From: Amoebophrya sp. A120
Lineage: Eukaryota > Protista > Dinoflagellata
NCBI GenBank assembly: GCA_905178155.1
Contig: CAJINV010000022.1
Coordinates: 527,458-591,457, forward strand
Direction of reading: 5' to 3'
DNA: 64,000 nucleotides
In this document: piece by piece, positions 6,790 to 28,923 of the stretch
Position numbering within the stretch: position 1 is the first letter of the stretch
How the letters are laid out: every line of letters starts with the position of its first letter
Notes under the pieces: generated by a model
What the model saw: the letters and a program-made list of their open reading frames with translations, nothing else
Told to the model about the DNA's origin: nothing
The model's database searches: none
Translations under genes and position numbers: made by a program

Positions 6790-7665
6790 CAGAGACAGCT
6801 GCCTACTGGCCACGCCTACCGACCTACCCACCCACATGGTGGGTAGGTGGGGCGAGGGAGCGCGCGCTGCCAATTGGCCACGCCTACCGACCTACCGACC
6901 CACCAGCCTGGTGGGTCGGTGGGGCGAGGGAGGGCGCGCTGCCTATTGGCCAGCACACCTACCGACCTACCCACCCACCTCGCTGGTGGGTGGGTGGGGC
7001 GAGGGAGCGCGCGCTGCGTATTGGCCGCGCCTACCGACCTACCCACCCACCAGCCTGGTTGATGGGTGCGGCGAGCAAACGCTGCCTATTGGCCACGCCC
7101 ACCGACCTACCCACCCACCTCGCTGGTGGGTGGGTGGGGCGAGCCAGGCAGCGAGCGCTGCCCCTTGGCCACGCCTACCGACCTGCCCACCCACGAGCCT
7201 GGTGGGCGGATGGGGCGAGCGTGCGCTGCCTATTGACCACGCCTACCGACCTACCCACCCACCTCGCTGGTGGGTGGGTGGGGTGAGCGTGTGTTGCCTC
7301 TTGGCCACGCCTACCGACCTACCCACCCACCTGCCTGGTGGGTGGGTGGGGCGAGCGCGCGCCGCCTATTGTCCACGCCTGCCGAGCGACCTACCCACCC
7401 ACCAGGCAGGTGGGGGTGTGGGGCGAGCGTGCGCTGCCTACTGGCCACGCCTACCGACCTACCCACCCACCTGCCTGATGGGGGGGGCGGGGCGAGCGTG
7501 CGTTGCCTATTGGCTACGCCTACCGCCCTAGACCCACCCACCCAGCTGCCAAGCGGGGGGGGGGCGGGGGCGAGCGTGTGTTGGCTACTGGCCACGCCTA
7601 CCGACCTACCAACCCACCTGCCAAGCGGGGGGGGAGGGGGTGGGGCGAGCGTGCGTTGCCTATGG
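6790..7665. repeat. GC-rich ~60-65-bp degenerate tandem repeat inside the TIR element
   Basis: Repeated GCCTATTGGCCACGCCTACCGACCTACCCACCCACC...GGTGGGTGGGTGGGGCGAGCG with internal inverted symmetry. Confidence 0.9.
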
Positions 7666-7914
7666 CTCAACTTATTAGCAGGGGGTTTGCAAGCAAGCGA
7701 CTCGCGCAGCGAAGGGGTTGCGCAAAAAGCCTCCCTCGGCATGACCCAGCGGGGGCTGATCCAAATTTTGCGCGAGTTTGTCTCTATTTCCCAAGTGTGT
7801 TTCGCTTGGGTTGAGGAAGCGCAGGTCGTGGCTGGAGAAAAATGCAGCACTGGGGCCCCGACCTCTTTCTATCTCACAGGCGCAAACTCTCACGAGGCCC
7901 CCCGGAGCTCCGAT

Positions 7915-8140
7915 CGCGTCCACGCAGCACAGATTTGCGTCTGCAGCGAGCTGCGCGCAACACTGATTTGCGTTGCGCGCAACACAGATTTGCGTCCACG
8001 CAGCACAGATTTGCGCGCAGCGCCGATTTGTGCTGCGCGCACGCAGCGGAGCTTTGTGTCTGCGGCGAGCTGCGCGCAGCACAGATTTGTGGCGCGCGCA
8101 ACACAGACTGGCGTCCACGCAACACAGATTTGTGTCTGTG
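7915..8140. repeat. Short degenerate tandem repeat (GCACAGATTTGCG-like) inside the TIR element
   Basis: Repeated CACAGATTTG motif at ~20-40 bp spacing. Confidence 0.7.
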
Positions 8141-9812
8141 TTGCGTGGACACATCGAACTCTCCTTCTGCCGAGACCTTTCTGCCGCCCTGGCGGAAGTG
8201 CCTACTGGGCGGCGATAGGATGTGGCGCCACCAGCCTCGCAGGGGCGGGCTGCAGCCCCGGTAGGGAGGCAGGTGCGCCGCACGCCCCGACCACCCCCCT
8301 ATCGCGTTTCGCCCTCCTTGCCGTTGCGGTTGTCTTCTAAATTCAAAACCGATATGCGTTTTTCCATAATTCGTAAATTCGGTCAGTTGTCGTCTGTCCA
8401 AAACCAACCAACCAACCGACCAACCGACCGGAATTTAGGCCTACAGGCCCACGCCTACTCTATCTTTGATACAGTCTGTCGAGCTGCTGTTAACTACATC
8501 TGCACAACTGCAAAACCCACGTCTGCTCTGCCATAAAGTGGAAAAGAAAAATGTACCGGAAATATTTCCAATCGCGGCCAGGCTGTTGAAATTGAAATTG
8601 TGGATACTAAGCGTATTGCTTTTTTCTCCATTGTGCTCGGAGGTGGGAAGAACTCACAGTGAGCTACAAGTGTTCTACTTCACGACAGTGGGTACCCGAT
8701 ACTATTTCTTCTGGCATTACTTCTCCATATTGGTGTTCAAGTTCGTTCTCGCAACCGACCCTTGCTGGAGAAAGGAAAAGTGAAGAGATCTGGTGAGAAT
8801 GATGTGACGGAACGATTAGTGATGGTTGACGTGAAGAACAAGCAGGATGATGTGCTGGAAAAAGATCATCCTCTTGAGTCTTGTTGTCCCTTGGACAACG
8901 TGGCAATCCGTTTATTTCAAACCAAGGTGGAGGTCGTCTGATGGTGCCAAGCTGAATTTGAACGATGAATTACAAAACAAAACGAACGAGAAGTACGTGA
9001 GGTGGTTCTTTTTGATTCTGCGATTTTTCCATGACGCGAAGATCGGATCTTCGCTTTCACAAGTTTGTCATGCATGAACTGCGATGGGCAAGAAGAAGAA
9101 GAACGAGATCCAGACTGATGCGCAAGCCACATAAAGGTAAACGTGGTTGCACAAGCACAGTCAACTGTTATTCTACAATATTATCCGCACTGTGTTGCCG
9201 AAGGCGTCTATCCCGGATGAATAGGAAGTTTACCATTATGGATTGCTTCTTTCTTCGAGGTGGATTCTACTTTCTGAGAATTTTCGGAATCTGAATTTTT
9301 CCAGCCCAATAAAAACTCGATTAGGAAAAGGAAAAAGGAATCGCGAGTCATCTCTCCAGATTGACCCTACTGGTAACATTACATAAAAACTAAAACAGTA
9401 TTGAAAGGCAAATATATAAAGACGTCTACTTCTTTGACACCTGAAAGCGACACAAGGAACTACACGGCGACATTGTTAAAAAAGAATATCTCCAATACCA
9501 AGCGACAGAAAGTTCTATCAGGTCAGAACGTCGGGTGACCGTGACCAGAATAATTGTGAAGGAAAATAAATTCAGCAGACGTGACTCTTCTCAACAGCAG
9601 GAGAAGAACTGAACTAATCTTTGTTTCCACAAAACATCTTCTCGTGGGACGGAAGGACTTCTCGAACTTGAACCACTACTTACACCCGGAAGTGGAACCG
9701 CTGCGCTCGTCATCTCCACGGCGTTCGGCCATTTGCAGTTTTGATCCACATCAACTACCCGGTAGTGGAGGTTGTGTAGCAAAAACAGCTCTACAAAGTA
9801 CCACGAACCAAC

Positions 9813-12800
9813 ATGCCGGACGAGCCCAAGAAAATCGCCATGAAGGTTTCTGCGGCCGCCAAAAATATCCTGTGCAAAAGTATCGTACTCGTATTGTAAT
9901 CATGCATCACAAATCTTTTTCTTAAAGGGAAATCAGCATTACAAATTGTATTTCTCATGCTGAGGAAATTTGTAATGCATTTATACGAGTACGACTACGA
10001 TACTTCTGCAATGCATAAAAAAGGCCGCGCAACCCAAGGCCAAAGCGGCTGCGGGAGGGAAGTCAGCGGCTGCGGGTGCAGCTGGGAAGAAAGCGGCTAG
10101 TGCGGGGGATGAACCTGAAGCTGAAGTTGGTCCGACGGTGGAAAAACAGCCGAAAGGCAAAGCAGCGGCCATGAAATCCATGAAGAAGGACGATGACGGA
10201 GGTGCTGTTGCTGCTGGTCCAGGCGAGGCCGCGCCGCAAGCGAATAAAGCTGCTGCGAGTATGAAGAAATCCATGAAGAAGGAGAACGATGCTCTATCCT
10301 GTGCAAAAGTAATATCGCACAAGTATGAATTGCATTACAAATTAGCCCAGCATTACAAATTGAATTTGTAATGCTGATTTGCCTTGAGAAAGAAATTTGT
10401 AAAACATAAATGCAATTACTACGAGTGTGATACTTTTGCAATGCATATGCTCCTGCGGAGGACAAAAAAGGCAGCAAGTCCGTCAATGCCAAAGTGATGA
10501 AATCGATGAAGCAACAGCCCGCTGCGTCTTCCGCTTATCAACTGTAAAAATGTCTGGGTCTGGGAACTTGTGATGCTGGGTAGCGTCTCATGATGAGGCT
10601 ACAAATGCTGGCTCAGCATGACAAGTTTCTGAGCTCCTAGGTGTTGCCTATTCTGCATGACAAACTGCGCTTCTGCATCACACAAAAACGGAGCTCTTGG
10701 GTAACGTGCATGACAGATTTAAGAGTCATGCCAGACAAGCATGACAAACATGAATTCTTCCAGAACCAAACATTTTTACAGTTGATACCGCTGCTGCTGG
10801 TGCCAAAAAGGGTGAGGAAGGTGGTCCTGTTGCTGAGGACGTGGGATCTGGCGGCAACGGAGCCGGGGAGCAGGACCAGGCGAAGAATGATCCCGTCGGC
10901 CTGGCTATCGCACGAAAAAAAGTTTTTACAGTTACACATTTGTTGGAATTTCTGCATCACAAACTTGCTCGACATGGCAAAGAAAATCTGTGTTGCGTAG
11001 ACTATAAGGGAAAACACGCACGAAATGACGCTGGCAAGCATTTTCCTGCATGACAGAGGGTGTCTGTCTTGCTTGTCTTCCATCAGAGTGTGGAACTACT
11101 GTAACACTGTTTCCGTGCGATACTGGCTGCTGGTGAAGGAGCAAATGTGAAGAAAATGAACCTCTCCAAGGAACTGGGCGGTGAGCCGCAAGTTGGGAAA
11201 AATGTGGACAACCAGAAGAACAACGACCTTGCTGCTGCTCCCGCTGTGAAAGAGCCCGGAGTTGGTGCTGGTGCTGCTGCTGTTCCAACCGGATTCCCCT
11301 CTGTTGCTGCTCCAGCTCCCGGTGCTGCGGCTAGCAGCTCCGCTGGTGCTATGGATTGCAAATTTCGTCTGGGTCGTCCTGGGGAGCAAGCTGGCAACTT
11401 GTCATGCGAAATCTCGATCACAAAAAAAATATGTGTTGCATGAAGTACGCCAAAGAGTGTCCACTTCTTGGTAGGGAAAGAGTTGTGGGTTTCTCAAGTG
11501 GACGGAGAGGCATGAGTTGTAAAGGTCTCGCAAATAAATCTGTGATGCTTCTGTGATGACAAACTTGTGCATTCATGATCCAGAGGACATCCCTGACGTG
11601 TTTGCATTCGACAAGTACATCCGGGGACATGTTGTCCCAGAAGAATTCTCTCGTCACTGCCAACCAGCATCAACCTGCAGCTGCCAGTAGTACTACTAGT
11701 ACTCCTGCAAAAAATTCCGAAATGTTGATGAAGAATTCCTTATCTTGTGCAAAAGTACCGTACAACTCGTACGAATTGCAATTAGGCATGACAAATCTTG
11801 TTACCTTAAAGGTAAAACAGCATGACAAATTCCAGCTGCTCTCATGCTGAGCTGCAAATTTGGAATGCAATTCATACTAGTACGACACTTTTGCAATGCA
11901 TATTCCTTGGCCGCTGCGAACCTGAATTTCAACCAGCACGCGCACGACATGGCCGACGCCATGCGCCTATCAAATGTAAAAATGTCTGGCTCTGGAAGAT
12001 ACTGACACTTGTCATGCGCGTTTTGCATGAGCCATGATGTCTGTGATGCATACCCTAGCAATACAGATTATTTGAGGGCTTCTTGATGCGTATTCTGCAT
12101 GACAGATGCCCTCTCAGCGTAGCAAAAATTGCATTTCCATTGGTACTCATGCAATACAGATTTTTTTGGAATCCAAATGCAGCATCACAAGTTGCATTCT
12201 TCCAGACCCAGACATTTTTACAGTTGATAGCGCCAGGGGGGCTGCGACAGGGCAACCGCGCTCGGCGCTTTGCTCGACGCGGGATTTGACGCCGTGACCG
12301 CTGCCATCACGACGACATGCTTCACTTGGTCGGACGAAAACAAGGAGAAAAAAGCAGACCCCGTCGCCGTCGGTGTTGTGGGTGGAACAAATATGGCTGC
12401 AGTGATAAATCATTCGGAGAAAAAACCGCCGGAGGAAAAAATAGAGCAGCATGTGGTGGATTCGTTCCTCGCCCAGATGAACAAGGTGAGCGAAAACAAG
12501 CATATGCATTGCAAATATGTCTGGGTCCTCTGGAGGGTTGCAACTTGTGATGCTGTCTTTAGATTCTAAAAAAATCTGTATTGCGTGACCAAGAAGAGGG
12601 GTGGTCCATTTTGTGCTACGCGGAGAGGGCATTTCTCATGCGGCATAGGCATCAGAAATGCCCTCTAAAAATATGTGATGCTAGGGCATGCATTACAGGG
12701 AGTGTGGGTGATGCAAAATATGCATGACAAACCTGGCAAGCTTCCAGACCGAGACATATTTGCACCTGATAAAGCAGCCGCAGATGCAACTCGACCCACA

Positions 12801-15800
12801 AATTCTGGAAAAGGAGCAAAGCGCGCTGCTTCCGCCGCCGGTGGCCGAGAACAACCAGAACTCGCTGCTGCAGCCGCAGGGGTATCCTGTGCAAACGTAT
12901 CGTATTTGTAGTAATCCATAATCGCATTTATGCATTGCAAATCTCCATCCCAAGGTAAAACAGCATGACAAATTCCATTTGTCTTGCTGGCCGAATTTGT
13001 AATGCGATTTCTACTACTACGATGCTTTTGCAAAGCATAAGGGCCTGCTGGGAAAGAAGAACGACATGCCGTTCCAGCAGATTGATGCGCAAGAATCCGC
13101 CGCGAAAATGAAAAATGCACTGCTGGATAATCGTCTCCCGGAGGAGCAGCCGCAGTTGGGCGCAAAGGTCGATCATGTCGGCAAGCAAAACATGATGCTC
13201 GGAAAGGAGCAGGTGGTTGTTCCCATGCAGTTGCTGCCAGACGAGGAGAAGAACAAAGAAATGAAGAAGATGGACGAAGACGTCGAGATGCAAGATGCGT
13301 TTGCTCAGGTCGTGCAGGAGCCGCTCGCCGTCCAGGCAGCCCCGGTTGGTGCAGTGATGAAGAAGTCCGGAATGAAGAAAGAAAAAATCGCCCCACCCGC
13401 CATGAAGAAGCAGAACCAGAAAGCCGCGGCACCGAAGGCTGCTCCTGCTGCGGAGGGTAACAATAAGAACGCCGTGAAGAAGCCGAACAACAAAAATAAG
13501 GGCGTCAAAGGCGGGAAAAAGAACGACCTCGACCTGGACTTGGACATCTTTGATGGCGAGGAGGACGAGGTATCACATAGAAAAAAGCAGGCGAAGTATA
13601 TCCATTTGTAAATGCAAAAAACGTTTAGCAGAAAAATCCGTCATGGGCGAAGATCTTCCCATAGCATGCTGTTTAGAAGAGGTTTCCTTACGCAATACAG
13701 ATTTTTCTGTGTGTTCATTTTTGCATGGCAAATAGGCCGTGCCTGGCTTTTTCTGTGGGATACGAGGAAGACATGGACTTGGAGGAGTTGCAGGATGGGG
13801 AGGAGTATCAACTGCAGAAATGTCTGGGTCTGGAAGAATGCCAGACTTGTCATGCTGGTTTTGCATGACCCATGCGGCCTGGCGTGTAGGACATAGCATG
13901 ACAGACTCTGTGAGAGTGCTATCATGCCTATCCTGCATGAATAACCGCCTCTCGATTAGGTCAAAAGTGGACAGCTTTTGGCAATCATGCAACACAGATT
14001 TTTACAAAATCAGATTTAGCATTACAAGTTGCTTTCTTCCAGACCCAGACACTTTTGCATTTGATAAGGAGGACGAGAACGGGGAGAAGCAGAAGGGCGG
14101 AAAAAATGCCATGAAAAAGGTCATGAAAGGGAAGAAAAAAGCCATGCAGAAGGAAGATGAGCAAGGTGCTGCGCAGAAGCAAGTCATGAAGGCAGGGGCG
14201 AAAAAACAGTCCACGGTGGCAGGGGGAGAAATGAGCTACCGCCTGCGGGTCAGCCGCGTGTTCCACGGCCGTTTTGGAAAGACAGTCACTTCGGGTGGAA
14301 TGCAGAAGAAAGACTTGAAGCGAAACAAGCGTGGGAAGATTTATGCTGTGCAAAAGTATCGTGCTCGTATAAATGCATTACAAATTTTCCCAATATGAGA
14401 AATAAAATTTGTCATGCGGAATAACCTTACGAAAAAAATTTGTAATGCATGAATGCAATTACTACGAGTACGATACTTTTGCACAGGATAAGATTGTCTC
14501 AAAGGCAAAATCCGCCGCCGCGAAAAAGAGAACTCCTATGAACTGCAAAAGTATCGTACTAGTACAAGAATTGCATTACAAGTTTGCTCAGCATTACAAA
14601 TTGAACTTGTAATGCGGATTTGCCTTAGGAACCAGATTTGTAATGCATAAATGCAATTGGTACGAGTGCGATACTTTTGCAATTCATAACTCCCCTCCTG
14701 TGGCCAGTGTGCGTCGCGGAAGCGCGAAAGGAGCTCGGTATGGCGTTCTCAACTGTTACATTCTCAACTGTTGCATAAATTTGTAATGCTAAAACAGCAA
14801 AAGCGAAAGCGGAGAGATCATTGCGTGTTTGCAATACAAATCTGGAGCGGATTGTTATGCTGTTTAGCCCTTCGAGACTTTGTGATGCGAGAACACCTTG
14901 ACCGCGTGGCTGCTTGTGGCAGTTTTGCATGATAAATCATGTAACGGCTGAGAATGTAACGTTTGAGAACCCCATACTCGGGACCAAGGGCTTTGGGAAA
15001 ATGAAGAACCCGGCTAAGGGAGGGGGTACCCCAGCGGAGTACGAGCTGTATCGCACGGTGAAGCGCATTTACGAAGTATTGTGAGGAAAAATCCCCCCTG
15101 CCCATGACAAAAAGGGAGACTTCTGAAAATTTGTGATGCCGATTTGTGACCACAAATCGGTTCTGTGTTGCAAGAAGGCCAATCCAGAGACTCCGCCGCA
15201 TTATCCAGGCGGTTTGTGATGCTATGGGGTCTACAGAGTACACATTTGCCGTGCTACGCGCCTACGTCAAGACCCTTCGCCTTGGGCTGGGTATGGGCCT
15301 GCAGTCCTCTACTGCAACACAGACCTGATTTGTGTACGCAAATCCAGCATCAGAAACTTCCGTGTGATATGTGGAGGGGGGATTTTTCATTTTAATACGA
15401 AGAGAAGAAAAAAGTGGCTGGCGAAACGAAAAAGAAAATGGAGGCGGACGTGGCGGCAGCCTTGGCCGACGGAAAAAATGTATGAACTGCAAAAGAAATA
15501 GTATCGTACTAGCATAAATCGCATGACAAATTAGCCCTGCATGACAAGTGGAATTTGTCATGCTGATTTGGCTTGGAAACGATATTTGTAATGCATAACT
15601 GTGATTTTTGCGATTAGTACGAGTACGATACCTTTGCACAGCATAAAATCCCGCCGCGGGCAAGAACATCTTTGGTTTATCGTCGGTGGTGAACAATGGC
15701 GCGGGCGTCGGAGGAGCTCCGGTAGTTGCTGCTGTCCTGGGCGTATGAAATGCAAAAATGTCTGGGTCTGGAAACTTGTGATGCTACAATGTGCATGATG

Positions 15801-18051
15801 AAAACACTTCCGAATGCAGTCCGGCATGACAACTTTCCAAAACGCTTTCTCATAGGCAATCCGCATGAGAAAGTGCGTTTTTGCATGACAAAACAGGCTG
15901 CGACTTTTGTTGGTTATGCAATAGAGATTTTTTAGGTATGGAAAGCTAGCATTACAAGTTCCATTTCCCAGACCCAGACACTTTTACAATCCATAGGGCG
16001 GTGGAGGACCCGCGCCGCACAACATGCCGGATCCGTTCGCGCCGTCCGCGGTGCAAAATAATATCAAATGCAAAAATGTCTGGGTCTGGAAGGTCGGAAC
16101 TTGTGATGCTAACTTTGGATGCTAAAAAAATCTGTATTGCATGACCAGCAAGAGGAGCCCAGTTTGTGCTACGGGGGGAGGGCATTTGTCATGCGGGATA
16201 GGCAGCAGGAAGGCCTCTAAAAATATGTGATGCTAGCTCATGCATTACAGACATCCTGACTCATGCAAAATATGCATGACAAACCTGGTAATCTTCCAGA
16301 CCCAGACATTTTTACAGTTGATAAATAACCAGATGGAAGCACCATTGTTGCAGCACCCAGAGGGCGGGCTGCGTGTTGCTCCTGGCGCGGGTGTAGGTGC
16401 GGTGGCTGCTGTCGTGGGGGGTAGTAACGACCAGATGGTGAACAATGTCCGGCAGATATCCTGTGCAAAAGTATCGTACTCGTAGTAATTGCGTTTATGC
16501 ATGACAAATCTCTTTCTCAAGGGAAATCAGCATTACAAATTCAATTTGTAATGCTGGGCTAACTTGTAATGCAATTGATACTAGTACGATGCTTTTGCAT
16601 TGCATGGCAGAATATGAATAACAATGTGGGCGGTGGTGGTGCTCCCGGAGCAGCATCTTCTTCTTCTTCCTCTCACCAAGTCGTGCCGCAGTTTTTGGGT
16701 CTTCAGCAGCCGCAGCAGTTTGGGGCTACTTCCAGCAACGCAGCGTCTGCAGCTTTACCAGGACAAGGACAGGAGAACAACGGCGACATCATCTTCATGT
16801 CCGGTGAGAAGGTCATGGACGCTTATCCAGGGAAAAACACACATCTCCACCCCCATCCAATCTGTCAAGCAAAACATGCATAAGCTCCAGTGTTTGTCAT
16901 GCAAAAAATGGATGGAGATTGATGTTTTTTCGTGGATATTAGCGCTGAGGGAGATGCGATCTTGGAGCAGGAGCCGGCGCAGGCGGGAGAGCAGAAAGGC
17001 GATATTCCAGAGCAGGATACGCATTGCAAAAGCATCGCACTATGTTGAAATTGCATGCCAACAAATTACTCATCTATCGCGAACAAGAACAAATGTGATA
17101 TCTGTATTGCTGATTCAGGTATTAAGAAACTAGATTTGTCATGCATAGCTGCAAGAACTTAAAAACCTTAGACGAGTACGGTATTTGTTTTGCAACAGTC
17201 TTCGTCCTCGTATAAATGCATTACAAGTTTCCACCTCAGCATGATAACTAAAACCTGTATATGCGGATTTACCCAAAAGAAAAAGATTTGTAATGCATGA
17301 CAGCAAGAATTATTACGAGTACGATACTTTTGCACAGGATAAAGTTCGAGGACCCGAACAAGTCTCCTATCCTGAGCAAAAACGTTCCTATCCCAGAGTT
17401 GTCATGCAAATGCGCAATGACAAAAACATTTGCAATGCGGATCTCCATGAAAGGCATTTCAAATCGCGTTTTGGCATTTGTAATGCTGTAAACAGGATCA
17501 GAAAATGGCTTTCTCATGCGGCTGCCCTTGCTAACCAGCATCACACTTCTGCAGGTGGAAATTTGTCATGCACATCTCTCAAGACTAGGAGATTTGTGTT
17601 GCAGATTTCCCAACTTGTTGACTATGGGGTGTGGGCCCCGTTTTTGCTCAGGATATCTCTCTTCAAGAATCCGTTAAAAGAGATGGATATTAAAGGCGAT
17701 CGAGACTGGGACGCTTTATCAACTGTAAAAGTGTCTGGGTCTGGAAGAATTCGAATTTGTGATGCGAAGTCTACATCATGAGAAAATCTGTGATGCGTGG
17801 CTAGCAAAAGGCCCCACTTCTTGTTTCCGAGAGCCGGGATTTGTCATGCGGATTAGGCATTGGGATATCTGCTCAAAATCTGTGATGCTAGAGCTTGCAT
17901 TCCAGACGATTTGGGTCATACAAAATCTGCATGACAGATCTCGCATTCTTCCAGACCCAGACAATTTTGCATTTGATACGCTTTGTCGGAACCCGAAAGC
18001 CCGGATCCGTATGGGCTGAAAAAACAAAAAGCAGATGCGGCGCAGGAATGA
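9813..18051 (+). CDS. ~1033-aa protein with an internal DVNP-like (dinoflagellate/viral nucleoprotein) domain; 24 exons
   Basis: All 24 exons join in one frame (3102 nt) using the element+5 rule. Domain at ~14230-15076 reads RVSRVFHGRFGKTVTSGGMQKKDLKRNKRGKIVSKAKSAAAKKRTPLLWPVCVAEARKELGTKGFGKMKNP...YELYRTVKRIYE, matching the DVNP core pattern; AMK/SMKK motifs typical of DVNP N-termini recur. Confidence 0.88.
9866..10017. mobile_element. Introner, family B
   Basis: TIR; repeat AAAAA/AAAAA. Confidence 0.92.
10295..10447. mobile_element. Introner, family B
   Basis: TIR; repeat TGCTC/TGCTC. Confidence 0.92.
10536..10787. mobile_element. Introner, family A (same subfamily as 35418-35669, opposite orientation)
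   Basis: TIR; repeat CCGCT/CCGCT. Confidence 0.93.
10906..11122. mobile_element. Introner, family E
   Basis: TATCGCACGAAAA...TTTCCGTGCGATA; repeat CTGGC/CTGGC. Confidence 0.9.
11350..11613. mobile_element. Degenerate A-like introner
   Basis: TATGGATTGCAAATTTCGTCTGGG...TTTGCATTCGACA; repeat GGTGC/AGTAC; frame restored. Confidence 0.75.
11741..11902. mobile_element. Introner, family B
   Basis: TIR; repeat TTCCT/TTCCT. Confidence 0.92.
11968..12229. mobile_element. Introner, family A
   Basis: TIR; repeat GCGCC/GCGCC. Confidence 0.93.
12503..12771. mobile_element. Introner, family A
   Basis: TIR; repeat AAGCA/AAGCA. Confidence 0.92.
12883..13039. mobile_element. Introner, family B
   Basis: TIR; repeat AGGGG/AGGGC. 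Confidence 0.91.
13571..13762. mobile_element. Introner, family F
   Basis: TATCACATAGAAAAAAGC...GCTTTTTCTGTGGGATA; repeat CGAGG/CGAGG. Confidence 0.9.
13806..14066. mobile_element. Introner, family A
   Basis: TIR; repeat AGGAG/AGGAG. Confidence 0.93.
14342..14490. mobile_element. Introner, family B (inside the DVNP domain)
   Basis: TIR; repeat AGATT/AGATT; joins RGKI|VSK. Confidence 0.93.
14537..14688. mobile_element. Introner, family B
   Basis: TIR; repeat ACTCC/ACTCC. Confidence 0.93.
14739..14976. mobile_element. Introner, family G
   Basis: TATGGCGTTCTCAACTGTTACATTCTCA...TGAGAATGTAACGTTTGAGAACCCCATA; repeat CTCGG/CTCGG. Confidence 0.92.
15077..15397. mobile_element. Introner, family D
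   Basis: TATTGTGAGGAAAAATCCCCC...GGGGGATTTTTCATTTTAATA; repeat CGAAG/CGAAG. Confidence 0.92.
15481..15645. mobile_element. Introner, family B
   Basis: TIR; repeat AAATG/AAATC. Confidence 0.9.
15744..15995. mobile_element. Introner, family A
   Basis: TIR; repeat GGGCG/GGGCG. Confidence 0.92.
16062..16323. mobile_element. Introner, family A
   Basis: TIR; repeat AATAA/AATAA. Confidence 0.93.
16457..16606. mobile_element. Introner, family B
   Basis: TIR (right end ATG); repeat GCAGA/GCAGA. Confidence 0.9.
16824..16941. mobile_element. Mini introner (~118 bp)
   Basis: TATCCAGGGAAAAAC...GTTTTTTCGTGGATA(TTA); repeat ACGCT/GCGCT; frame restored. Confidence 0.75.
17018..17341. mobile_element. Composite intron made of two fused family-B introners
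   Basis: Two B bodies joined at TTTTGCAACAGTCTTCGTCCTCGTA (~17190); flanks CAGGA/AAGTT unmatched; frame still restored by element+5. Confidence 0.75.
17368..17655. mobile_element. Introner, family C
   Basis: TIR; repeat TCTCC/TCTCT. Confidence 0.92.
17717..17978. mobile_element. Introner, family A
   Basis: TIR; repeat CGCTT/CGCTT. Confidence 0.93.
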
Positions 18052-18235
18052 TCGAAAAAAAAACCAGTGATTTCTTCTTTGATTTAATCATCATCATCTT
18101 CTTCTACTTTGTCTTTCCGGGATTTCTAATTCGGAAGTTAAGTAGAACAAACTGTACCACCTCCTTCGAGCAGAACTGAACAAACGGTGAATATCAAACT
18201 GGTCTTCTTGAACATCTACCTCACGACATGGATGA

Positions 18236-18384
18236 TATGCACTGCAAAAGTATCGTATTGGTCCTAATTGCAGTTGTGCATTACAAATTTCTTTTTCAAG
18301 CTAAATCAGCATCACAAATTCCATTTGTCATGCTGAGCCAATTTGTATTGCAATACTACGAGCGCGATACTTTTGCAGTGCATA
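18236..18384. mobile_element. Introner, family B (outside any recognised CDS, probable 3' UTR)
   Basis: TIR; repeat GATGA/GACGA. Confidence 0.9.
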
Positions 18385-19272
18385 GACGAAATAAGGCAGC
18401 AACAATCTTTTCACAACTACCAGCAACTCAACCTAAATTTCTTCTTCAACAGCACCGAAAAAGGAAAAACGAGAACACCAAATCGACGACGACGTCACTG
18501 TTATTTTACTGTATCAGGAACAACAGACCGGCTTCTTGTTACATCACGACATCTACATCAAGGAAAGACGTCTTCTTCGAAAGCAGGAACGTCGACGTCG
18601 GCACTTCGAGATCTAACGACAAGTAGACCACGACGACGCGGAAAATATAACGACCTCTTCTTCAACTTTATATCAACTACAACTAATAAAAACGAATGTA
18701 TTTGTATTCTCTTTCTTCAGCACGGGATAAGGATTTTTTCTCCAAGTTCAACTACAGCGGGACGACGAGGAACCATGCTGCATTAAGATTTTTTTCCGAA
18801 ACGAGAACGATTATTGGTACAAACAGCTTCTTTTGATTTCTACCGGACGGCAGAAACTTCTCTCTCTGGGTCGTACCACAAGCGGAGGACGATAATATTA
18901 AATCGGTCGTGGTCCTGGAAAGTGGAAGTAGTATCATGTTGAGGAGGACATCGAGAACATCGATTCAAGTCATCATCATGATCTCGGTGTAGTATGATAG
19001 CAAAACGACCGAACTCGCTAGAAGTTTTTTGACCTCGGGGTCTACAGCAGGAGACACATCACTGGGGACGAGCAGATCCTTCTAGACAACAAGGCGACTC
19101 GTGCCAGCTTTCCGGTACAACTAGAAGAGACCCCTTCAATTATACTCGATTTTCCACCGTGCATGATCTTCATTACCTGCAGTGTTTCCAGAGGCAGGTG
19201 AATGGATGGAGTCATGATCATGTGTTGATCACAAATAATAATTATCCCAGGTACTACAACTTCAACTGGCTC

Positions 19273-19477
19273 TATGGAGAGAAAAAAGTTTGTCACAATC
19301 ACTAATTTGCAGGTTTTGCATTACAAATTTTTTAGCATCACAACTTCTCCTTGTATTGCAGAAACACTAGGGAAATCCCTTATGAAGTGTGGCTGTGATG
19401 CATTTTTACGCATGACAGACAGCTTTGTGTTGCAAAAATGCAGATGACTGATCGTGACGAACTTTTTTCTTTTGATA
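19273..19477. mobile_element. Introner, minor family (outside recognised CDS)
   Basis: TATGGAGAGAAAAAAGTTTGTCAC...GTGACGAACTTTTTTCTTTTGATA; repeat GGCTC/GGCTC. Confidence 0.88.
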
Positions 19478-19535
19478 GGCTCACCACGATGATGTTTCGG
19501 TGACGGTGCTGCAGCTCGAGTTTTTTGTTTTTTAA

Positions 19536-19846
19536 TATCAAAACGAAAAATCCCCCCTCCCCATATCAAAACGGAAATCTGTGATGCAGATTTGTTGTCA
19601 CAAATCAGCTTTGTTATGCTACACGGGAAAAGATGCGGACTGTAGTGCTGGGTGGCGTGGGGGAGCGTTGCATCTTCAGCATGATAGGAGGCAGCTGAGA
19701 GTGGGAAACAGCATGACAAATTGCCTGCAAACGAGACCACGACTGCGGCTCTTGGCCTTCTAGCATGACAAGTCGATTTGGTACCTCAAATCCTGCATCA
19801 CAGATTTCCATTTCGATATGGGGAGGGGGGATTTTTCCGTTTGATA
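19536..19846. mobile_element. Introner, family D (outside recognised CDS)
   Basis: TIR; repeat TTTAA/TTTAA; close relative of 28620-28923. Confidence 0.92.
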
Positions 19847-20655
19847 TTTAACAAAAGTCGTTAGCGGTCCGGTTTTCGATTAAAGAACCTCCTCCTGCTA
19901 CCAGCAATATAGACCACTTCACGACTACTTCCACATAAGGACAGGCCGAAAAAACAATTTTTCTCGGACGGAATAACAACAGCCCGGTACTATAGTACGT
20001 AGCGTTTTCCTGGACCCGCTGCTTTTGTCATGCGTACTGGCGTGAGGAAGAGGATGCTGAAATTGGAGCCTCATGCGCTTGTCTTCTACCGCATGAGGAA
20101 GAGGATACTTCAACACATGGCGAATAAAAAAAAATGAAAATGACAGGTGAAGTGCCGCTCACAACAGGGAGCGTCGATTTCCTGGTTTGACGCAGCACCG
20201 GGATCCACCGAGTTCGTCTAGAGAACAGAGCCTTCACTTTCACCCGAAAAATAGTTCCAACGAAAAGGTAGTAGAACCCGAACAAGGATTTTAGCAACTG
20301 GCACGAGGTGGAAGCACTGTTTTTTAGAACACGGATAAAGGCAAAAAAAACGGACGCGACTTGAACGTGCTCGACCATCTTTTATATCACAAATTATTAC
20401 GTACAACTTGCTCTACAAACAGAACAACACGGTATTGTCAAGAAGAACCTCAAACGGTACAAGTAGTCGTGAAGCGAAATTCCGGGGCATCGACGCTACA
20501 GCCGGAGCTAGTACAACTCGAAAAAATACAACATCATCGAACAATCGGCAAGAGCCAGAAAGTCTTCGGTAGAACTTTCTGAAAGTTCGCTCCTGCAGGA
20601 GCTGCAGGAACGGCGACAAGAACCGGAGATCTAATTTTTGGCTAAGTAGGAGAAC

Positions 20656-20923
20656 TATGGATTGCAAAAATGTCTGGGTCTGGAAGGTTGGAACTTGTCA
20701 TGCTAAATCTGAATCAAAATCATGCAAAAATCTGTGTTGCATGATTTGCAAATGCTGTCCACTTTTGATCAAGTTGAGAGGCACTTTCTCATGCCGGATA
20801 GGCATGATAGTGATCTCACGGAATCTGTCATGCTAGGTCCTCCATTACAGATGATGTGGGTCATGGAAAACCTGCATGACAAGTCTAGCAAAGTTCCAGA
20901 CCCAGACATTTTTACACTTGATA
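20656..20923. mobile_element. Introner, family A (outside recognised CDS)
   Basis: TIR; repeat AGAAC/AGAAC. Confidence 0.93.
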
Positions 20924-22450: not shown

Positions 22451-25400
22451 ATGGAGCAGCAAGAGAGCGACGAAGCCTTGCTGCCCTCTTTTGCACCGGA
22501 TGAGTTCTATGGCGATGATCATGTGGCGCAAGGGAAAAGCCATCCCCACCGCAGTTCCCTCTCTCCTCCCGTTGCGACGCGGAAAACAACGCTTTCGAAA
22601 AACCCCCACTGTTCTTCCGGGTCCCCGGAAGATCTCCACGAGCCCCCCGTCCGGCAAAATGAAAATAGCCTGTCGCCAGCATTCTCCTCCAATGCATGCC
22701 ACACAAACGACTCTGCAGAGCGGGACCGACGGCGGCCGCCTGCCACAACAGACGATAACCAGGGCGACGGTGACATCATCTCCGAGGCGGATGAAGCAGC
22801 TCTGGCAGAACCCGCTGGGGCTGTGGCCTCATCACCTCCGTGCGAGGACCGTGCGGTAGCATCTTCTCAGCGGTCGAAAACCTTCTCCATTCACGACCTT
22901 TCCTTCACCATTGGGGATCTGATCGGGCGTGGCGGCTTTGCAGAGGTCTACCAAGCGAAGAGGGACGATAAGAAATTCGCCTTGAAAATTGTTTCCGCAC
23001 AAAATAAGCGTCGTTTGATGCAGTTTCAGCAAGAAGCAGTTTTGCTCTATGGATTGCAAATATGTCTGGGTCTGGAAGAGTGCAAGTTGTCATGCTAGAT
23101 CTGAATCATACAAAATTCTGTGTTGCATGATTACCAATAAAAAGCTGTTCACTTTTGAGAAGGCCGCGAGGCACTTTCTTATGCGGAAAAGGCATGGTAA
23201 AGATCTCACACAATCTGTGATGCTAGGGCATGCATCACAGACCTCACACGTTATGGAAAACGTGCATTACAAACCTGGAAATCTTCCAGACCCAGATATT
23301 TTTGCAGTTGATATGCTCGAGAACCTGACGAAAAAGGACAAGATATCCAGAGGAAAAACGTTCCCGACCCAGAGTTGTCATGCGCAATGGCATGTCTATA
23401 TCTAAAATTTTTCTACTTAACGCAACCCCATGAGAAGCGTTTTTTCATGTTGTCTGGGACTTTGTCATGTCAGAATCAGGATTAGAATACGAAGATGGAT
23501 CGATTTTTTATGCGGCTTTTCTAGCTAAACACGATCACCATCACACTAAAGACCCCAAGCTTGTCATGTGCAACAGCCAAAAGTTCTTGATTTGTGTTGC
23601 AAAGTCCCAATATACTTGACTCTGGGGTGGGGACGTTTGTCCACAGGATACAAGACAGGGAGAAAGCACGTCGTGCACTGTTTTGGCTCTTACTGTGACG
23701 TCGCCAACTTGCGGATCCACATCTTGCTATGCTCTGCAAAAGTATCGTACTCGTACTAATTGCAATCATGCATGACAAATCTTGTTTCTTAGCCAAATCA
23801 GCATTTACAAACTCCATTTCTCCTTCTGAGAAAATTTGTATTGCGATTTGTACTAGTACGTTTCTTTTGCACAGGATACTTGCTGGAATTTGCCGATTGC
23901 GACTTCGAGGCCTATCATCGGAGCTTCGTCACGAAAGTGACTCATGTGCCGACTCTTGAAGATGCCGATCCCGATGCTGGGGCCAGCCCAGGTGGGAGAG
24001 GACCACGACACACCAGAGCCTGTTCACGGAATAAAACGAAATTCTTCATGCCTTTAAACACGATTCTGCATTGCGGAAAGCAGATGGCGGCTGCGGTCGC
24101 CTTTATTCACAGCAAGAACATCGTGCACTTTGATTTGAAGCCCGCAAACTTTCTCATGTTTGAAAACAAGCAGAAAATCAAGCTGTCCGACTTCGGGCTG
24201 GCGAGGGAGGTCGAGCAAGATAAATCCCATATCAGCCGGTTTGGGCAGTGCGGCACAATCTTATACATGGCTCCGGAGGCCTTCCACCAGGGCGAGCAGT
24301 ACGAATCCAGTATGAAAATGAAGCCGGAAACGGATATTTGGTCCCTTGGAATCATACTGTACGCGATGATCTACGAAAAGCCGCCGCACGCGTATTTGTT
24401 CAACCAACCAGGGGGAGGCAATCGGGTGATGTTCTGCATCGTCGACCCTTTCATGGAAATCCAGTATCCGGACAAGTTCTGCGCCTTCACACAAGACATT
24501 TTAGAAGACGGCCTCGCAGATTTCGAAGGCAAGAGGCTGGAGCATTTGCTGTATTTGGTGCAATTCTGTCTCGCACGGGAAGTCGCAGACAGGATCACTG
24601 CCTTTGATTTAGAAAAAGAGCTGGTCGGACTGGAGGTGGTGAGCGAACGCAGGTTGTTGCGGATCGACAACCGAACTGGGGGCGTAGGGGGCGAAGATCT
24701 GTTGCATGGCAAGCAAGGATCAGGGCCAAAGCAAAATGGCACGTCTAATGCGAGGACCCGCACAACAACGGCGGAGGGGTCGGAGTCCTCGGGTTTGTCC
24801 AACAATAGCGGCCGCGATGCTGCTTCCCCTGCGAAGCTAGATTTCCAGTTTCGCACAGCGTTGATTAGGCCGATTCCGGGAAGCACGGCAACGGTGTTGC
24901 ATCGAAAGCACATTCCGGAGGTAGCGGTTTCTCGGTCTGGTTCACGGCCTACTTCGGAAAGCGGATTCATTTCCCCTCCGGAGAAAGCCACCCCTGCGCA
25001 AGAGAGCGAAATATTATCACCAATTGCACCCACCGTGCAACAAGAACAGCACCTTTCAGAATCGATGCTTCGCAGATCCGAGGACGAGGAAGCTGGGAGG
25101 CAGCAGTTGCTGCTACAAGGGAAAATGCCGCCCTCCAATTGTGCAAAAGGCTCCGAACAAGTGGATCTCGATCCGGAACAAGCACCGCTGATCGATACCG
25201 AAAAACAAGACCTATTCGCGGTCGGAAATGGCTCTACGGGACAACACGATGCGGCCGCACCAGACGCTCGTCATGTCGATGCACCTTTCTGGAGCAGCAT
25301 TGCTGGGAAAGCTATCATTTCTGCTCTTCTCCTGGCTATCGGCATTAGCACTGCTGTATCTATCGGAATATTTGGGACAAACACGGCGACGTCGTCGAAT

Positions 25401-27326
25401 TCTGGCGCAGCGAATCAACAACTCAATTTCGGCGGCAACAACGCGTTATTTCCGCCCGGAATACTAAGACCAAATGATATAGTTTTCGTAAAAAATGGGA
25501 ACGGGACCATGTTCGGAGCGACAGGTGGACGAAATGTCGGCGGCAACGGCTACGGGACTTGTAGCTCTACAGACATCCAGCCCGTGGTAGCCAGGCCTCA
25601 TACTGCGTTTTTGCCGCCGTCGAGTCCCAGTTCCTGGAGTCCGGGGCAGGAGATCGAAGCAGGTCATGGGGATGCAGGCAGTCCAAGCAGCCGCCCACAT
25701 GTTGGTGCACAAGAAACAACCACGCAACAAATAAATGCGGCCCGCCCGGCCACGTCAATCGCAGCTCCGCCAGCTGGGATTTCCCTTGGAAATATCGGAC
25801 CAACTGTAGGCTCACCCTCTCCCCCAAATGGCAGCGTGCCTGTCAGCACAGCTGCTCCGTCGGTCGTGCCAGGGGGCTTACGTGTATCGCCAGCACATCT
25901 TCAAGGAAGGACTGCAATCACGCCACAGCCCAGGCAGTCTCCGGCCTCCGAGCCCCCTGCTCCTTCTGCTCCTTCAGTGGTACTGCCGCCAGTAGTACCT
26001 CCTGGTGGAAACGATCCGCACGAACCCTTACCGACCCAACCGGTGGGCGCGTCTTCGGCGCCTCCCTCCCACATCGGAGTCGCGACGACGGCTGTGAGCG
26101 AGCAGTTGCAGACCGCGTTTTCGCCGCCGAGTCCGAGTGTTCTCAGCCCGGGTCAGAGCGGAGACGGAGATGCCGATGCGGGGGGCAACGGAAATGGAGG
26201 TGCTGACGGTGCGGGCACTGGCTTTAATAATAGCAGCAGCGACCTTGGAACTGACAACAGCAATGGTGGCCGTCCGCTATATGATGCACAAGAAACCACA
26301 CAACCAACCACAGCCCCGGCATCGAGCCCCCCTGTTGCAGCTCTCGTATCAGTTGGGAATCATACTGAAACCGGAGAGACCGCCAGCCCTCCTCTCGTCA
26401 ATGGTAACCTGCCTGTCACAGCTGGTTCTGCTGTGGAGGTTCGTGCAGGTTTATCAACAGAACCAGGCACGGGCGATTCTTATCGCGAAATCCTTCGTGA
26501 GATGAATGCACGCAGGTTTATCGAAAATCTCAGGCGCGCGGTGGCTCTCAGGCGCGCTGATGTGCACTGCCGGAGCCGTTGTGGCGGAGCCGGAGGTGCC
26601 AGCAGCGAGCTATATCAGGAAGAGTCTTTGGCAGGGCCAAGCGGAACTTCTCCATCGCTGCCAGCCGGAGCCACGATACTTACTGCCGACTCACCAACAC
26701 GAGAACCGGACGGCCCCGCATCAAACCCACCTGCAGCAGCTCCAGTCCCAGATGGGAATGATATTGGAAACGGAGGAGGTCCTGCTAGCTCTCCTCTCGT
26801 CAATGGTAACCTGCCTGTCACAGCTGGTTCTGCTGTGGAGGTTCGTGCAGGTTTATCAACAGAACCAGGCACGGGCGATGCTGATGACGAAATTCGTCGT
26901 GAGATCGCGCTATGCCGTCCGCGCAAGTTTATCGACAAGGTCAGGCGCGCGCGCGCGCGCCGATCGGGTTCTGATGTGCACTGCCGGAGCCGTTGTGGCG
27001 GAGGTGCTAGCAGCGAGCTATATCATGGCGGCCCTCAGTTTCATGAAGACCCGGTGCAGCGATTCGCGCAGAGGTACACGTGCTCGATCTGTTCGGACTC
27101 CCCACTGCAACTGCCGCAGGAGGTGCAGCAAAGGTTGGGAGCTCCGAGGAACTCCCGCACTCGTGGTCCTGCATACGAGACGAAATCGCTAGCGGTGCTG
27201 CCTTGTGGGCACACCTTCTGTGAGGGTTGCATCGGATACTGGACGCACAATCACCCTAGTTGCGCCTTCTGTCGCTGTAGCATTCCCCGTATGAGAGTGC
27301 ACAAGAACCCCCATTTACTTAAGTAA
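22451..27326 (+). CDS. Kinase paralog 1 (~1378 aa): Mps1/TTK-like Ser/Thr kinase, TM helix, Pro/Ser/Gly stalk, C-terminal C3HC4 RING finger; exons 22451-23047, 23319-23343, 23656-23727, 23884-27326
   Basis: GRGGFAEV, FALK, QQEAVLL, HFDLKPANFL, DFG, GTILYMAPE, DIWSLGIILY; TM AIISALLLAIGISTAVSIGIFG (~25311-25376); CSIC...LPCGHTFCEGC...CAFCR (~27081-27278). Start codon uncertain. Confidence 0.9.
23048..23313. mobile_element. Introner, family A
   Basis: TIR; repeat TGCTC/TGCTC; joins VLL|ENL as in intron-less paralog 3. Confidence 0.95.
23344..23650. mobile_element. Introner, family C
   Basis: TIR; repeat CAAGA/CAAGA. Confidence 0.93.
23728..23878. mobile_element. Introner, family B
   Basis: TIR; repeat CTTGC/CTTGC. 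Confidence 0.94.
26385..27022 (+). repeat. Intragenic duplication (~230 bp x2) in kinase paralog 1
   Basis: PLVNGNLPVTAGSAVEVRAGLSTEPGTGD...DVHCRSRCGG...ASSELY encoded at ~26385-26615 and ~26786-27022. Confidence 0.9.
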
Positions 27327-27736
27327 CATTGTCCCCCGCTTTATGTATCAGTTTGGAAGAAAAGCAGCCGCAACAGAAACAAAGTATAGAATTTTTGTAG
27401 CTTCTGCATGCCAAATACAAATTGAAGTATACTTATGCGCGCGGCCTGTAGTACAACGGATAGATACAATTACTTGGGTTCTCCTGGTCGTGCCCTAATT
27501 CATTATTGTCACACCCATTGATGTATATATAGCGGGGATGTGAAGAGGCTGCACTAGTATGAGTACCTGCAGTTGCGTTTGTCTTGCATGACGACAATAA
27601 AGGTGGGACGATCCCCGGACCGCATGAGGAGTTCATCTTGTGCACTCGGATACCCCGTGCCAAACGTGAACGTGTCGAGCTGAACGACGGTGCCAGCGAG
27701 TTTTACTTTGATCCCTCCTACCATGCGCGCTGTGTT

Positions 27737-27941
27737 TATCCAAGGAAAAAAGTGTAGTGTAAGTGTAACTTTTTTGCAGGAACAGCATCACATGACAGAG
27801 AAATAAACCTGTCATGCGTAGCTAGTAAGCGAAAACACGTCTTAAAATAGCCTTTGACGCATATAATCCAGCATGACAAGTGTAACTGTGTCGCAGCCTC
27901 TGCAAGACAAAGTTACACTTACACAGTTTTTCTCTTGCATA
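27737..27941. mobile_element. Introner, family E (downstream of the paralog 1 stop)
   Basis: TATCCAAGGAAAAAAGTGT...TTTTTCTCTTGCATA; repeat GTGTT/GTGTT. Confidence 0.9.
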
Positions 27942-28619
27942 GTGTTCCACGTTACGAGGCACCACGTGGTAGTGGGCAATACGCAGGCGCTAATCGTTAT
28001 GGGTGTGGCAGGATCAAAATTGACAAAGTCGAAAAATTTGTATATGCATAGAATGTAGGGCACGCGTGGCCTGTGTTGGGGAGCAGGCAAATGAGTCCGA
28101 TTGCAATCCTGCCTGTTTAGGGGTAATACGCAATGTGCTGCCAGAGTAGCATGACAGGAGTAGTCTTCTTTGCCCAAACAGCACGACAGATTGCATTGTG
28201 GTGCTCCCGAATAAATTTGTCATGCGCCGCTTGCAAAGAAACAAACTGAGGCTCCAACTGGTATCGATTTTACACGACATGCATCACAAGTTTTATTTTG
28301 ATTATTGTCAATTTATTCGATTCTGACACTTCCATAATCGTGTTGTGCGCTTGAAATTCAATATCTACAAGCGTGACCACACGGATGAAGTCGAGGGGGC
28401 TCGTTCCCGGGGGCACGTGGAACTGGTGCAGCCGCAGGCGTGCGAGGGTCATCATCGTACTAACAGTGGACACCCCGCACCAGGAAAGACTACATTCACA
28501 CCAAAAGTTGAAATCGAAGAGCGCCGAGCCATTTCGTCAGCGGACCACACCAGCACAACTGAAGATGGGAATGAATTCCATCTAAAGTGGACAAACAGGA
28601 GGGAGCAGGAAGGGTCTGC

Positions 28620-28923
28620 TACTGAGAGGAAAAATCCCCTCTCCCCATATCAAAAATGTGATGCAGATTTGTGGTCACAAATCAGCTTTGTCATGCTAGA
28701 AGGGAAAAGATGCGGACTGTAGTGCTGGGCTGCGTGGGACAGCCGTGCATCTTCAGCATCACAGGAGGCAGCTGGAAGTGGGAAACAGCATAACAAACTG
28801 CCTCCAATCGAGGCCACAACTACGCCTCTTCGCCTTCTAGCAATACAAGTCGATTTGTGTACTCACATACAGCATCACAAATTTCGCTTTTGATATGGGG
28901 AGGGGGGATTTTTCCTCGCGATA
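28620..28923. mobile_element. Introner, family D
   Basis: TIR; repeat TCTGC/TCTGC. Confidence 0.92.

What the first reader, a model, noticed from the sequence alone, without database searches (positions are those of the whole stretch)
9813..18051. Giant (~1033 aa) DVNP-domain protein hidden behind 23 non-canonical introns
Seen: after removing 23 introners one frame runs from 9813 to 18051. It has Lys/Ala-rich AMKxMKK tracts, an acidic tract (DLDLDLDIFDGEEDEEDMDLEELQDGEEDE) just before a DVNP-like core at about residues 680-770, and a ~260-aa low-complexity tail. Known: DVNPs are small basic proteins that largely replace histones in dinoflagellate chromatin. Inference: this is an unusually large, mostly disordered variant that might act as a chromatin scaffold, or be regulated by its own acidic tract. 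The ORF track misses it because the domain itself is cut by four introners.
Basis: partly seen in the sequence, partly recalled or inferred. Interest (0 to 1): 0.8.

Follow-up and report, generated by a model that had tools for sequence, protein, structure and literature searches.

The report
Giant disordered DVNP in Amoebophrya parasite
A marine parasite (Amoebophrya A120) has a gene, split by 23 transposon-like introns, for a 1,034-residue version of DVNP, the normally ~130-residue protein that replaces histones in dinoflagellates; its intact DNA-binding core and long, predicted floppy, nearly neutral arms mean it likely tethers or spaces chromatin rather than packing it.

Summary
Removing 23 inverted-repeat elements plus 5 bases each opens one frame, 9813-18051, of 1,034 aa (random-phase control 0 of 20,000). 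Single RNA-like contigs from one sample join upstream exons to the DVNP exons and skip the elements. PF19060 DVNP matches residues 683-746, E 5.5e-14. 25 of 27 conserved domain columns are kept, and the domain folds confidently. It is the longest DVNP-domain protein seen: 149 homologs have median 128 aa and maximum 682.

Corrections: the protein is not hidden, as NCBI already holds it, unnamed. One intron is GT-AG. The introners are published. Long, multi-domain and acidic-tract DVNPs exist elsewhere, and another A120 DVNP is 299 aa. No ortholog of the arms was found.

Net charge is only +8, so bulk packing is unlikely. A minor chromatin tether or spacer is my best reading and is untested. The scan notes I saw listed no DVNP gene from this genome; the fixed splice register seen here was noted before on other pieces.

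The parts
9323..9812 (+). 5' untranslated region as covered by the RNA-like contig (490 nt); no ATG in it; in-frame stop at 9777
9813..18051 (+). Coding span: 24 exons, 3,105 nt, 1,034 aa (P0001). Exons: 9813-9864, 10022-10293, 10452-10534, 10792-10904, 11127-11348, 11618-11739, 11907-11966, 12234-12501, 12776-12881, 13044-13569, 13767-13804, 14071-14340, 14495-14535, 14693-14737, 14981-15075, 15402-15479, 15650-15742, 16000-16060, 16328-16455, 16611-16822, 16943-17016, 17346-17366, 17660-17715, 17983-18051
   Evidence: joints
9865..17982 (+). 23 introner introns: 9865-10021, 10294-10451, 10535-10791, 10905-11126, 11349-11617, 11740-11906, 11967-12233, 12502-12775, 12882-13043, 13570-13766 (GT-AG), 13805-14070, 14341-14494, 14536-14692, 14738-14980, 15076-15401, 15480-15649, 15743-15999, 16061-16327, 16456-16610, 16823-16942, 17017-17345, 17367-17659, 17716-17982
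9813..10517 (+). N-terminal Lys/Ala-rich arm (about residues 1-130) with three MK..MK tracts like the N-terminal tails of short DVNPs
11709..12325 (+). Predicted helical hairpin (about residues 278-335; window coordinates approximate), pLDDT 66-73, no family found
13360..13524 (+). Basic block, residues 539-593 (17 K/R, 2 D/E; coordinates approximate)
13525..14081 (+). Acidic tract, residues 594-624 (19 D/E, no K/R), cut by introns 10 and 11 (coordinates approximate)
14082..14248 (+). Basic AMKKVMK tract, residues 625-680, the equivalent of a DVNP N-terminal tail (coordinates approximate)
14249..15470 (+). DVNP domain: Pfam PF19060 at residues 683-746; confident fold about 671-795, cut by introns 12-15 (coordinates approximate)
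15471..18051 (+). Gly/Ala/Asn/Gln-rich, net acidic C-terminal tail, residues 796-1034 (14 K/R, 27 D/E), predicted disordered
18235..18388 (+). 24th introner, spliced out of the 3' untranslated region; the contig runs 2,169 spliced nt past the stop

Best explanation
This is a spliced gene of Amoebophrya sp. A120 encoding a 1,034-aa protein with one intact DVNP domain, which likely binds chromatin through that domain and likely acts as a minor tether or spacer rather than a bulk DNA packer. Shown: exon structure, domain identity, kept family residues, normal positive charge of the domain, near-zero charge of the whole protein, and alternating basic and acidic blocks. Inferred: (1) the N-terminal arm grew partly by multiplying the MK..MK tail of ordinary DVNPs; (2) the protein enters the parasite nucleus and binds DNA without sequence preference, as Hematodinium DVNPs do; (3) its ~900 disordered residues would keep DNA segments apart, bridge them or recruit partners instead of neutralising them; (4) the acidic tract may fold back on the flanking basic blocks and tune DNA binding. 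The introners are passengers, removed with one copy of their 5-nt duplication.
For: PF19060 52.8 bits against cut-off 25; exon 12 alone gives 28.7 bits. 25 of 27 domain columns conserved in at least 70% of 101 short homologs are kept (a 28th column, an N-terminal Met, is an alignment artefact and was dropped). With those homologs AlphaFold gives block pLDDT 75-96 over residues 671-800. Foldseek matches a 100-aa Feldmannia species virus protein, probability 1.00, TM 0.59 by target; that virus is reported to encode a DVNP (PMC11953307, passages). Net charge per residue of the domain is 0.185 against a homolog median of 0.198; the whole protein is 0.008 against 0.185. Charge blockiness exceeds all 2,000 shuffles. 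MK..MK occurs 4 times (0 of 10,000 shuffles reach this) and in 35 of 149 homologs. The 675 upstream codons are stop-free (chance 7e-13; other frames have 31 and 22 stops). No signal-peptide-like or membrane-like hydrophobic stretch. DNA binding and chromatin location of short DVNPs: PMC6723414 and PMC6313786 (passages and section 15).
Against: No ortholog of the arms was found. Exon 10 found only P0001 among proteins of 309-2,000 aa. The domain found no other protein of 568-1,810 aa in the word-indexed search, although later gave a 682-aa hit, so that search is insensitive. No relative scored better than E 1e-9 among 1.84 billion representatives, and two metagenome scans gave nothing useful. 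Function of the arms is therefore not backed by conservation. Amoebophrya proteins evolve fast (orthologs about 50% identical) and A120 coding sequences average 1,773 bp (PMC7789003), so neutral bloating is plausible. Other Amoebophrya DVNPs are also elongated, 299 and 366 aa. There is no protein-level, localisation or expression-level evidence, and the RNA support is contigs of one sample labelled only 'RNA?'.
Confidence: 0.5

Rival explanations
1. Neutral bloating: an ordinary minor DVNP whose termini expanded under relaxed constraint. The domain works; the arms are tolerated filler.
For: No ortholog of the arms. Fast protein evolution and long coding sequences in Amoebophrya. Other Amoebophrya DVNPs are elongated with unrelated flanks. 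Seven times the mean intron density is tolerated only in part as expected: 7.4 per kb here against 1.42 genome-wide.
Against: The arms are stop-free with codon-position bias, and the MK tracts and charge blocks are far from shuffled expectation. This shows they are translated and patterned, but not that they have a specific role.
Confidence: 0.28
2. Precursor or alternative start: the long protein is cut, or a minor transcript starts internally, giving a shorter basic DVNP. The acidic tract would act as a built-in chaperone that shields the domain until release.
For: A normal-looking AMKK tail sits directly before the domain, and Met635-Met675 are available. The acidic tract lies just upstream of that tail. 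Some other DVNP homologs also carry acidic N-terminal leaders.
Against: One unbranched contig per run joins all exons. No loose end at 14110-14230 is among the rows shown (17 rows were not shown). Internal starts would still give 360-400 aa. No cleavage evidence.
Confidence: 0.12
3. Effector for host chromatin: the parasite exports the protein to disturb the DVNP chromatin of its dinoflagellate host.
For: Intracellular parasite of dinoflagellates (PMC7789003). That A120 grows inside the host nucleus is recalled, not checked here. DVNP remodels foreign chromatin in yeast (PMC5906630 passages; PMC6723414).
Against: No signal-peptide-like N-terminus. No stage-specific expression data.
Confidence: 0.05
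4. Artefact or fusion of two neighbouring genes.
For: The NCBI model and the RNA-like contigs may rest on the same data. Genome-derived multi-domain DVNP models can be chimeric: the 707-aa AT5.2 model has a 366-aa transcript counterpart.
Against: One uniform rule from DNA alone opens the frame. Contigs in four runs carry the joins with 0 mismatches. DVNP-tail motifs occur from residue 67 on.
Confidence: 0.03

Closest known systems
DVNP family (Pfam PF19060), Hematodinium DVNPs
   Same: Domain above the curated cut-off, conserved residues kept, normal basic charge of the domain, Lys-rich AMK-type tail before it.
   Different: 107 kDa against 13.4-20.2 kDa (PMC6313786 section 15); pI 8.7 and net charge +8 against median pI 10.8; about 640 extra N-terminal and 240 extra C-terminal residues.
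Non-core, multi-domain DVNPs (WGR-WWE-DVNP; Wang et al., bioRxiv 10.1101/2024.02.09.579734, whole text read; also 11 of 19 Symbiodinium minutum DVNPs with extra domains, PMC6313786)
   Same: A DVNP domain inside a larger protein. Of the 10 longest homologs here, 3 have WWE, 2 have WW, 1 has two DVNP domains and 4 have no other Pfam domain.
   Different: No second Pfam domain, much longer, arms low-complexity. The preprint states non-core DVNPs first appear in Amphidiniales, whereas this one is in a syndinian. My tree cannot place it: weak support of 81 with a WWE-type protein.
Other elongated Amoebophrya DVNPs (A120 GSA120T00010607001, 299 aa; a 366-aa transcript protein clustering with AT5.2 g17249)
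   Same: Acidic patch, Lys/Met-rich tract, DVNP domain, low-complexity tail.
   Different: A separate clade in the domain tree; no significant similarity outside the domain; strongly basic overall.
Amoebophrya A120 introner elements (Farhat et al. 2021, PMC7789003, sections 5, 10, 11 and passages; Gozashti et al. 2025, PMC12130899, passages)
   Same: TAT-starting inverted repeats, short direct repeats, non-GT-AG ends, tens of copies in one gene.
   Different: Nothing in kind. Here the cut fits one fixed register, whereas the paper's Fig. 3 legend calls the position variable or unknown.

Membership tests
DVNP family (PF19060) | Profile match above the curated cut-off | tested here: met
   52.8 bits against 25, E 5.5e-14, residues 683-746
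DVNP family (PF19060) | Conserved core residues and fold | tested here: met
   25 of 27 columns kept; confident model; fold match to a Feldmannia virus protein
DVNP family (PF19060) | Lys-rich N-terminal extension of dinoflagellate members | tested here: met
   16 K/R in residues 625-680, MK..MK at 635
Canonical (core, bulk-packing) DVNP | Small and highly basic overall | tested here: not met
   1,034 aa, net +8, 0.008 per residue against median 0.185
Canonical (core, bulk-packing) DVNP | Among the most abundant transcripts and nuclear proteins | not testable with these tools
   Only contigs were available; their depth cannot rank genes
DVNP family (PF19060) | Nuclear location and DNA binding | not testable with these tools
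   Needs experiment; basic clusters at residues 99, 639 and 700-705 are only suggestive
WGR/WWE-type non-core DVNP | WWE and WGR domains | tested here: not met
   Only PF19060 at E up to 1
Amoebophrya A120 introner elements | Terminal inverted repeats starting TAT with 3-5-nt direct repeats | tested here: met
Amoebophrya A120 introner elements | Removed from transcripts, mostly without GT-AG | tested here: met
   Joints in RNA-like contigs; 1 of 24 GT-AG
Amoebophrya A120 introner elements | Repeated across the genome | tested here: met
   Thousands of contigs from other loci lay on the elements in run X5; 46 found in the window by a strict scan

The most novel reading that the evidence does not exclude
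Amoebophrya has turned the virus-derived histone replacement into a ~107-kDa charge-patterned chromatin organiser: one DVNP anchor, multiplied DVNP tails and a built-in acidic switch. It would be a specialised architectural DVNP variant that opens, bridges or phase-separates nucleosome-free chromatin, and the largest transcript-supported DVNP found here.
Probability: 0.3. Interest if true: 0.72.

Novelty: new variant of a known kind. Interest (0 to 1): 0.45.

Why it matters
How dinoflagellates regulate chromatin without nucleosomes is open, and the division of labour among DVNP paralogs is described as unknown (PMC4751559, passages). A transcript-supported DVNP eight times the usual length and nearly neutral cannot easily be a bulk packer, so it is a concrete candidate for a regulatory or architectural variant that can be tested in vitro and in yeast. 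Surveys can miss such proteins: one filtered DVNPs by length (PMC11953307), another rebuilt genes from 2 kb on each side of a hit (bioRxiv 2024.02.09.579734), while this gene spans 8.2 kb. Interest is limited by the lack of any ortholog, the existing database entry and known multi-domain DVNPs.

Tried and rejected
No whole genome was held, so A120 paralogs could not be surveyed. Run X8 (raw RNA reads, same species label) gave 28 reads, all only partly on the stretch and under 99% alike; it says nothing on this gene. No listed holder is on record as RNA. Single-sequence folding left the domain unfolded (mean pLDDT 37.9). Solved-structure searches found nothing meaningful: sequence best E 0.77, Foldseek none at E up to 0.001, VIA best Z 5.7 on generic helices. 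The Atlas gave DVNP clusters at 0.85 for residues 660-800, a lead only, and nothing for 270-410. Metagenome scans: none for P0001, and one weak 20-residue match, L001, not followed. The domain tree is the quick version with 123 columns, 13 of 154 branches starred; it cannot name the closest paralog. No internal protein repeat by self-BLAST. An open frame alone fixes only the phase: removing element+2 or +8 also opens it; RNA joints fixed +5. Exon 9 has an alternative open frame, rejected because the block sum and the perfect duplication at element 8 fit +5/+5, as does P0001. 30 homologs were looked up for source; most were unnamed and none was labelled A25. 57 of 207 hits were not listed.

Full report
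Observation. The region 9813-18051 holds 23 elements of 115-324 nt with terminal inverted repeats, nearly all TAT...ATA, flanked by a 5-nt duplication. Element 5 is degenerate (arms 10 of 20) and was placed by eye; the ends of elements 16 and 19 were moved one base before RNA data were seen. Removing each element with 5 more bases gives one frame of 1,034 codons ending at 18051; with random phases 0 of 20,000 trials exceeded 1,000 aa. ATG 9813 follows an in-frame stop at 9777 and is the first ATG on the covered leader, 9323-9812.

Transcript evidence. No run is on record as RNA holding this stretch, but four contig runs of one sample, labelled 'RNA?', behave as spliced RNA. In X1 one 5,764-nt contig runs from 9323 through the exons with no mismatch; X3 has a matching 3,751-nt contig. 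Record offsets give intron 1 exactly and introns 2-4, 5-7 and 8-9 as block sums equal to element+5 (my arithmetic). A closer lay of X1, X2 and X4 showed 14 joints: 13 skips equal element+5, including one in the 3' untranslated region, and the 14th equals two elements around a micro-exon. So 15 of 23 coding introns are resolved singly and 8 only as blocks. Run X5 holds unspliced pieces, for example 13003-13834 across intron 10. These contigs may be the data behind the NCBI model, so the two are not independent, and contigs show neither starts nor levels.

Identity. Exon 10 retrieved a single protein, P0001, 1,034 aa, 'unnamed protein product [Amoebophrya sp. A120]', with PF19060 precomputed. 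The gene is therefore already predicted, though unnamed. PF19060 matches residues 683-746 at 52.8 bits (cut-off 25) and nothing else matches. Against 101 short homologs, 25 of 27 conserved domain columns are kept. Folded with them, residues 671-800 reach block pLDDT 75-96 while 765 residues stay under 50. The model matches a 100-aa Feldmannia species virus protein and an unnamed 80-aa viral protein at probability 1.00; the top row by E-value is a low-confidence 57-A match and was ignored.

Length survey. The domain found 207 representatives at E up to 0.001, of which 150 were listed. The 149 homologs have median 128 aa; 27 reach 200 aa, 10 reach 300, and the longest is 682. A 707-aa AT5.2 gene model appeared as a cluster member of a 366-aa transcript protein and may be over-extended. 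Of the 10 longest, 5 carry WW or WWE domains, 1 has two DVNP domains and 4 have no other family. Another A120 DVNP is 299 aa. Long DVNPs are thus a known theme: WGR-WWE fusions (bioRxiv 10.1101/2024.02.09.579734, whole text; its supplementary data sets are closed and may list this gene among the Amoebophrya DVNPs) and extra domains in S. minutum (PMC6313786 section 15). P0001 is the extreme case seen, and differs in having low-complexity arms. Paper searches and the passages read showed no description of a ~1,000-aa DVNP; most listed papers were seen as listings only. The Farhat supplement only marks DVNP as detected.

Anatomy. Residues 1-130 are Lys/Ala-rich with three MK..MK tracts; a fourth lies at 635. 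Four such tracts were never reached in 10,000 shuffles, and 35 of 149 homologs carry one. This suggests, without proving, that the arm grew partly from copies of the ordinary DVNP tail. Residues 278-335 form a predicted helical hairpin with no family. Then follow a basic block (539-593), an acidic tract (594-624, 19 D/E), a basic tail (625-680), the domain, and an acidic Gly/Ala/Asn/Gln-rich tail. The domain is as basic as its homologs (0.185 against 0.198 per residue) but the whole protein is nearly neutral (0.008 against 0.185; 8 of 149 homologs fall below 0.05), and charges are more clustered than in any of 2,000 shuffles. Acidic tracts of this strength occur in 6 of 149 homologs. The upstream arm is maintained as coding sequence. 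There is no signal-peptide-like stretch.

Mechanism. Short DVNPs bind DNA about as well as histones and lie on chromatin (PMC6723414 passages). A protein with one such domain per 107 kDa and net charge +8 would neutralise DNA poorly, so I infer a minor tether or spacer role, possibly tuned by the acidic tract (0.5). The main rival is neutral expansion (0.28): no ortholog of the arms was found, Amoebrophrya-type fast protein evolution is documented, and mean A120 coding length is 1,773 bp (PMC7789003). Processing or an internal start (0.12), a host-directed effector (0.05) and artefact (0.03) are less likely.

Introns. They are the published A120 introners (PMC7789003 sections 10, 11; PMC12130899 passages), here at 7.4 per kb against 1.42 genome-wide. 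Only one of six tested registers, cutting one base before the left arm and four bases after the right arm, reproduces P0001 with no difference. RNA joints pin it exactly at introns 20 and 21 and exclude the neighbouring register at 16 and 22. At that register 1 of 24 introns is GT-AG. I found this before looking, then saw that other scan notes report the same; those are unchecked notes, not independent support.

Verdict. Real, accurately read, and a new variant of a known family: an unusually large, nearly neutral DVNP-domain protein with untested function.

Noticed in passing
window 9865-18388, 24 introners: All joints fit one cut register: one base before the left-arm TAT to four bases after the right-arm ATA, so intron position 2 is always T. 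Intron 21 ignores an AG one base away, and intron 20 follows the arm rather than its displaced direct repeat (though it ends in AG). Farhat 2021 calls the border variable or unknown; other scan notes report the same register.
   Followed up: yes
window 18052 to about 21200: The RNA-like contig runs 2,169 spliced nt past the stop, with at least one spliced introner (18235-18388). Further elements near 19270-19850 and 20657-20923 are visible.
   Followed up: partly
proteins P0031, P0033, P0128 (unnamed metagenome or metatranscriptome sources): DVNPs of 232-265 aa with a long acidic N-terminal leader before a normal basic DVNP; in two the leader ends in an LRGG motif, which I recall as a ubiquitin-like cleavage site. 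Possibly a processed, self-chaperoned DVNP precursor class.
   Followed up: no
proteins P0118, P0036: DVNP domain fused behind two WW domains (682 and 426 aa, transcriptome sources); the DVNP survey read here reports WWE and WGR fusions, not WW.
   Followed up: no
window 22451-28722, 33357-38507, 48830-53388: After removing introners, three long + strand frames (1,536, 1,276 and 1,207 aa) with similar beginnings or kinase-like stretches appear, probably a local family of kinase paralogs (not searched against families).
   Followed up: no
window 57541-60960 (- strand): A 1,139-aa uninterrupted frame whose start resembles a Copia-type retrotransposon protease motif (recalled).
   Followed up: no
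window about 6800-8400: GC-rich repetitive region upstream of the gene (67% GC at 7001-8000) giving long repetitive frames; probably tandem repeats.
   Followed up: no
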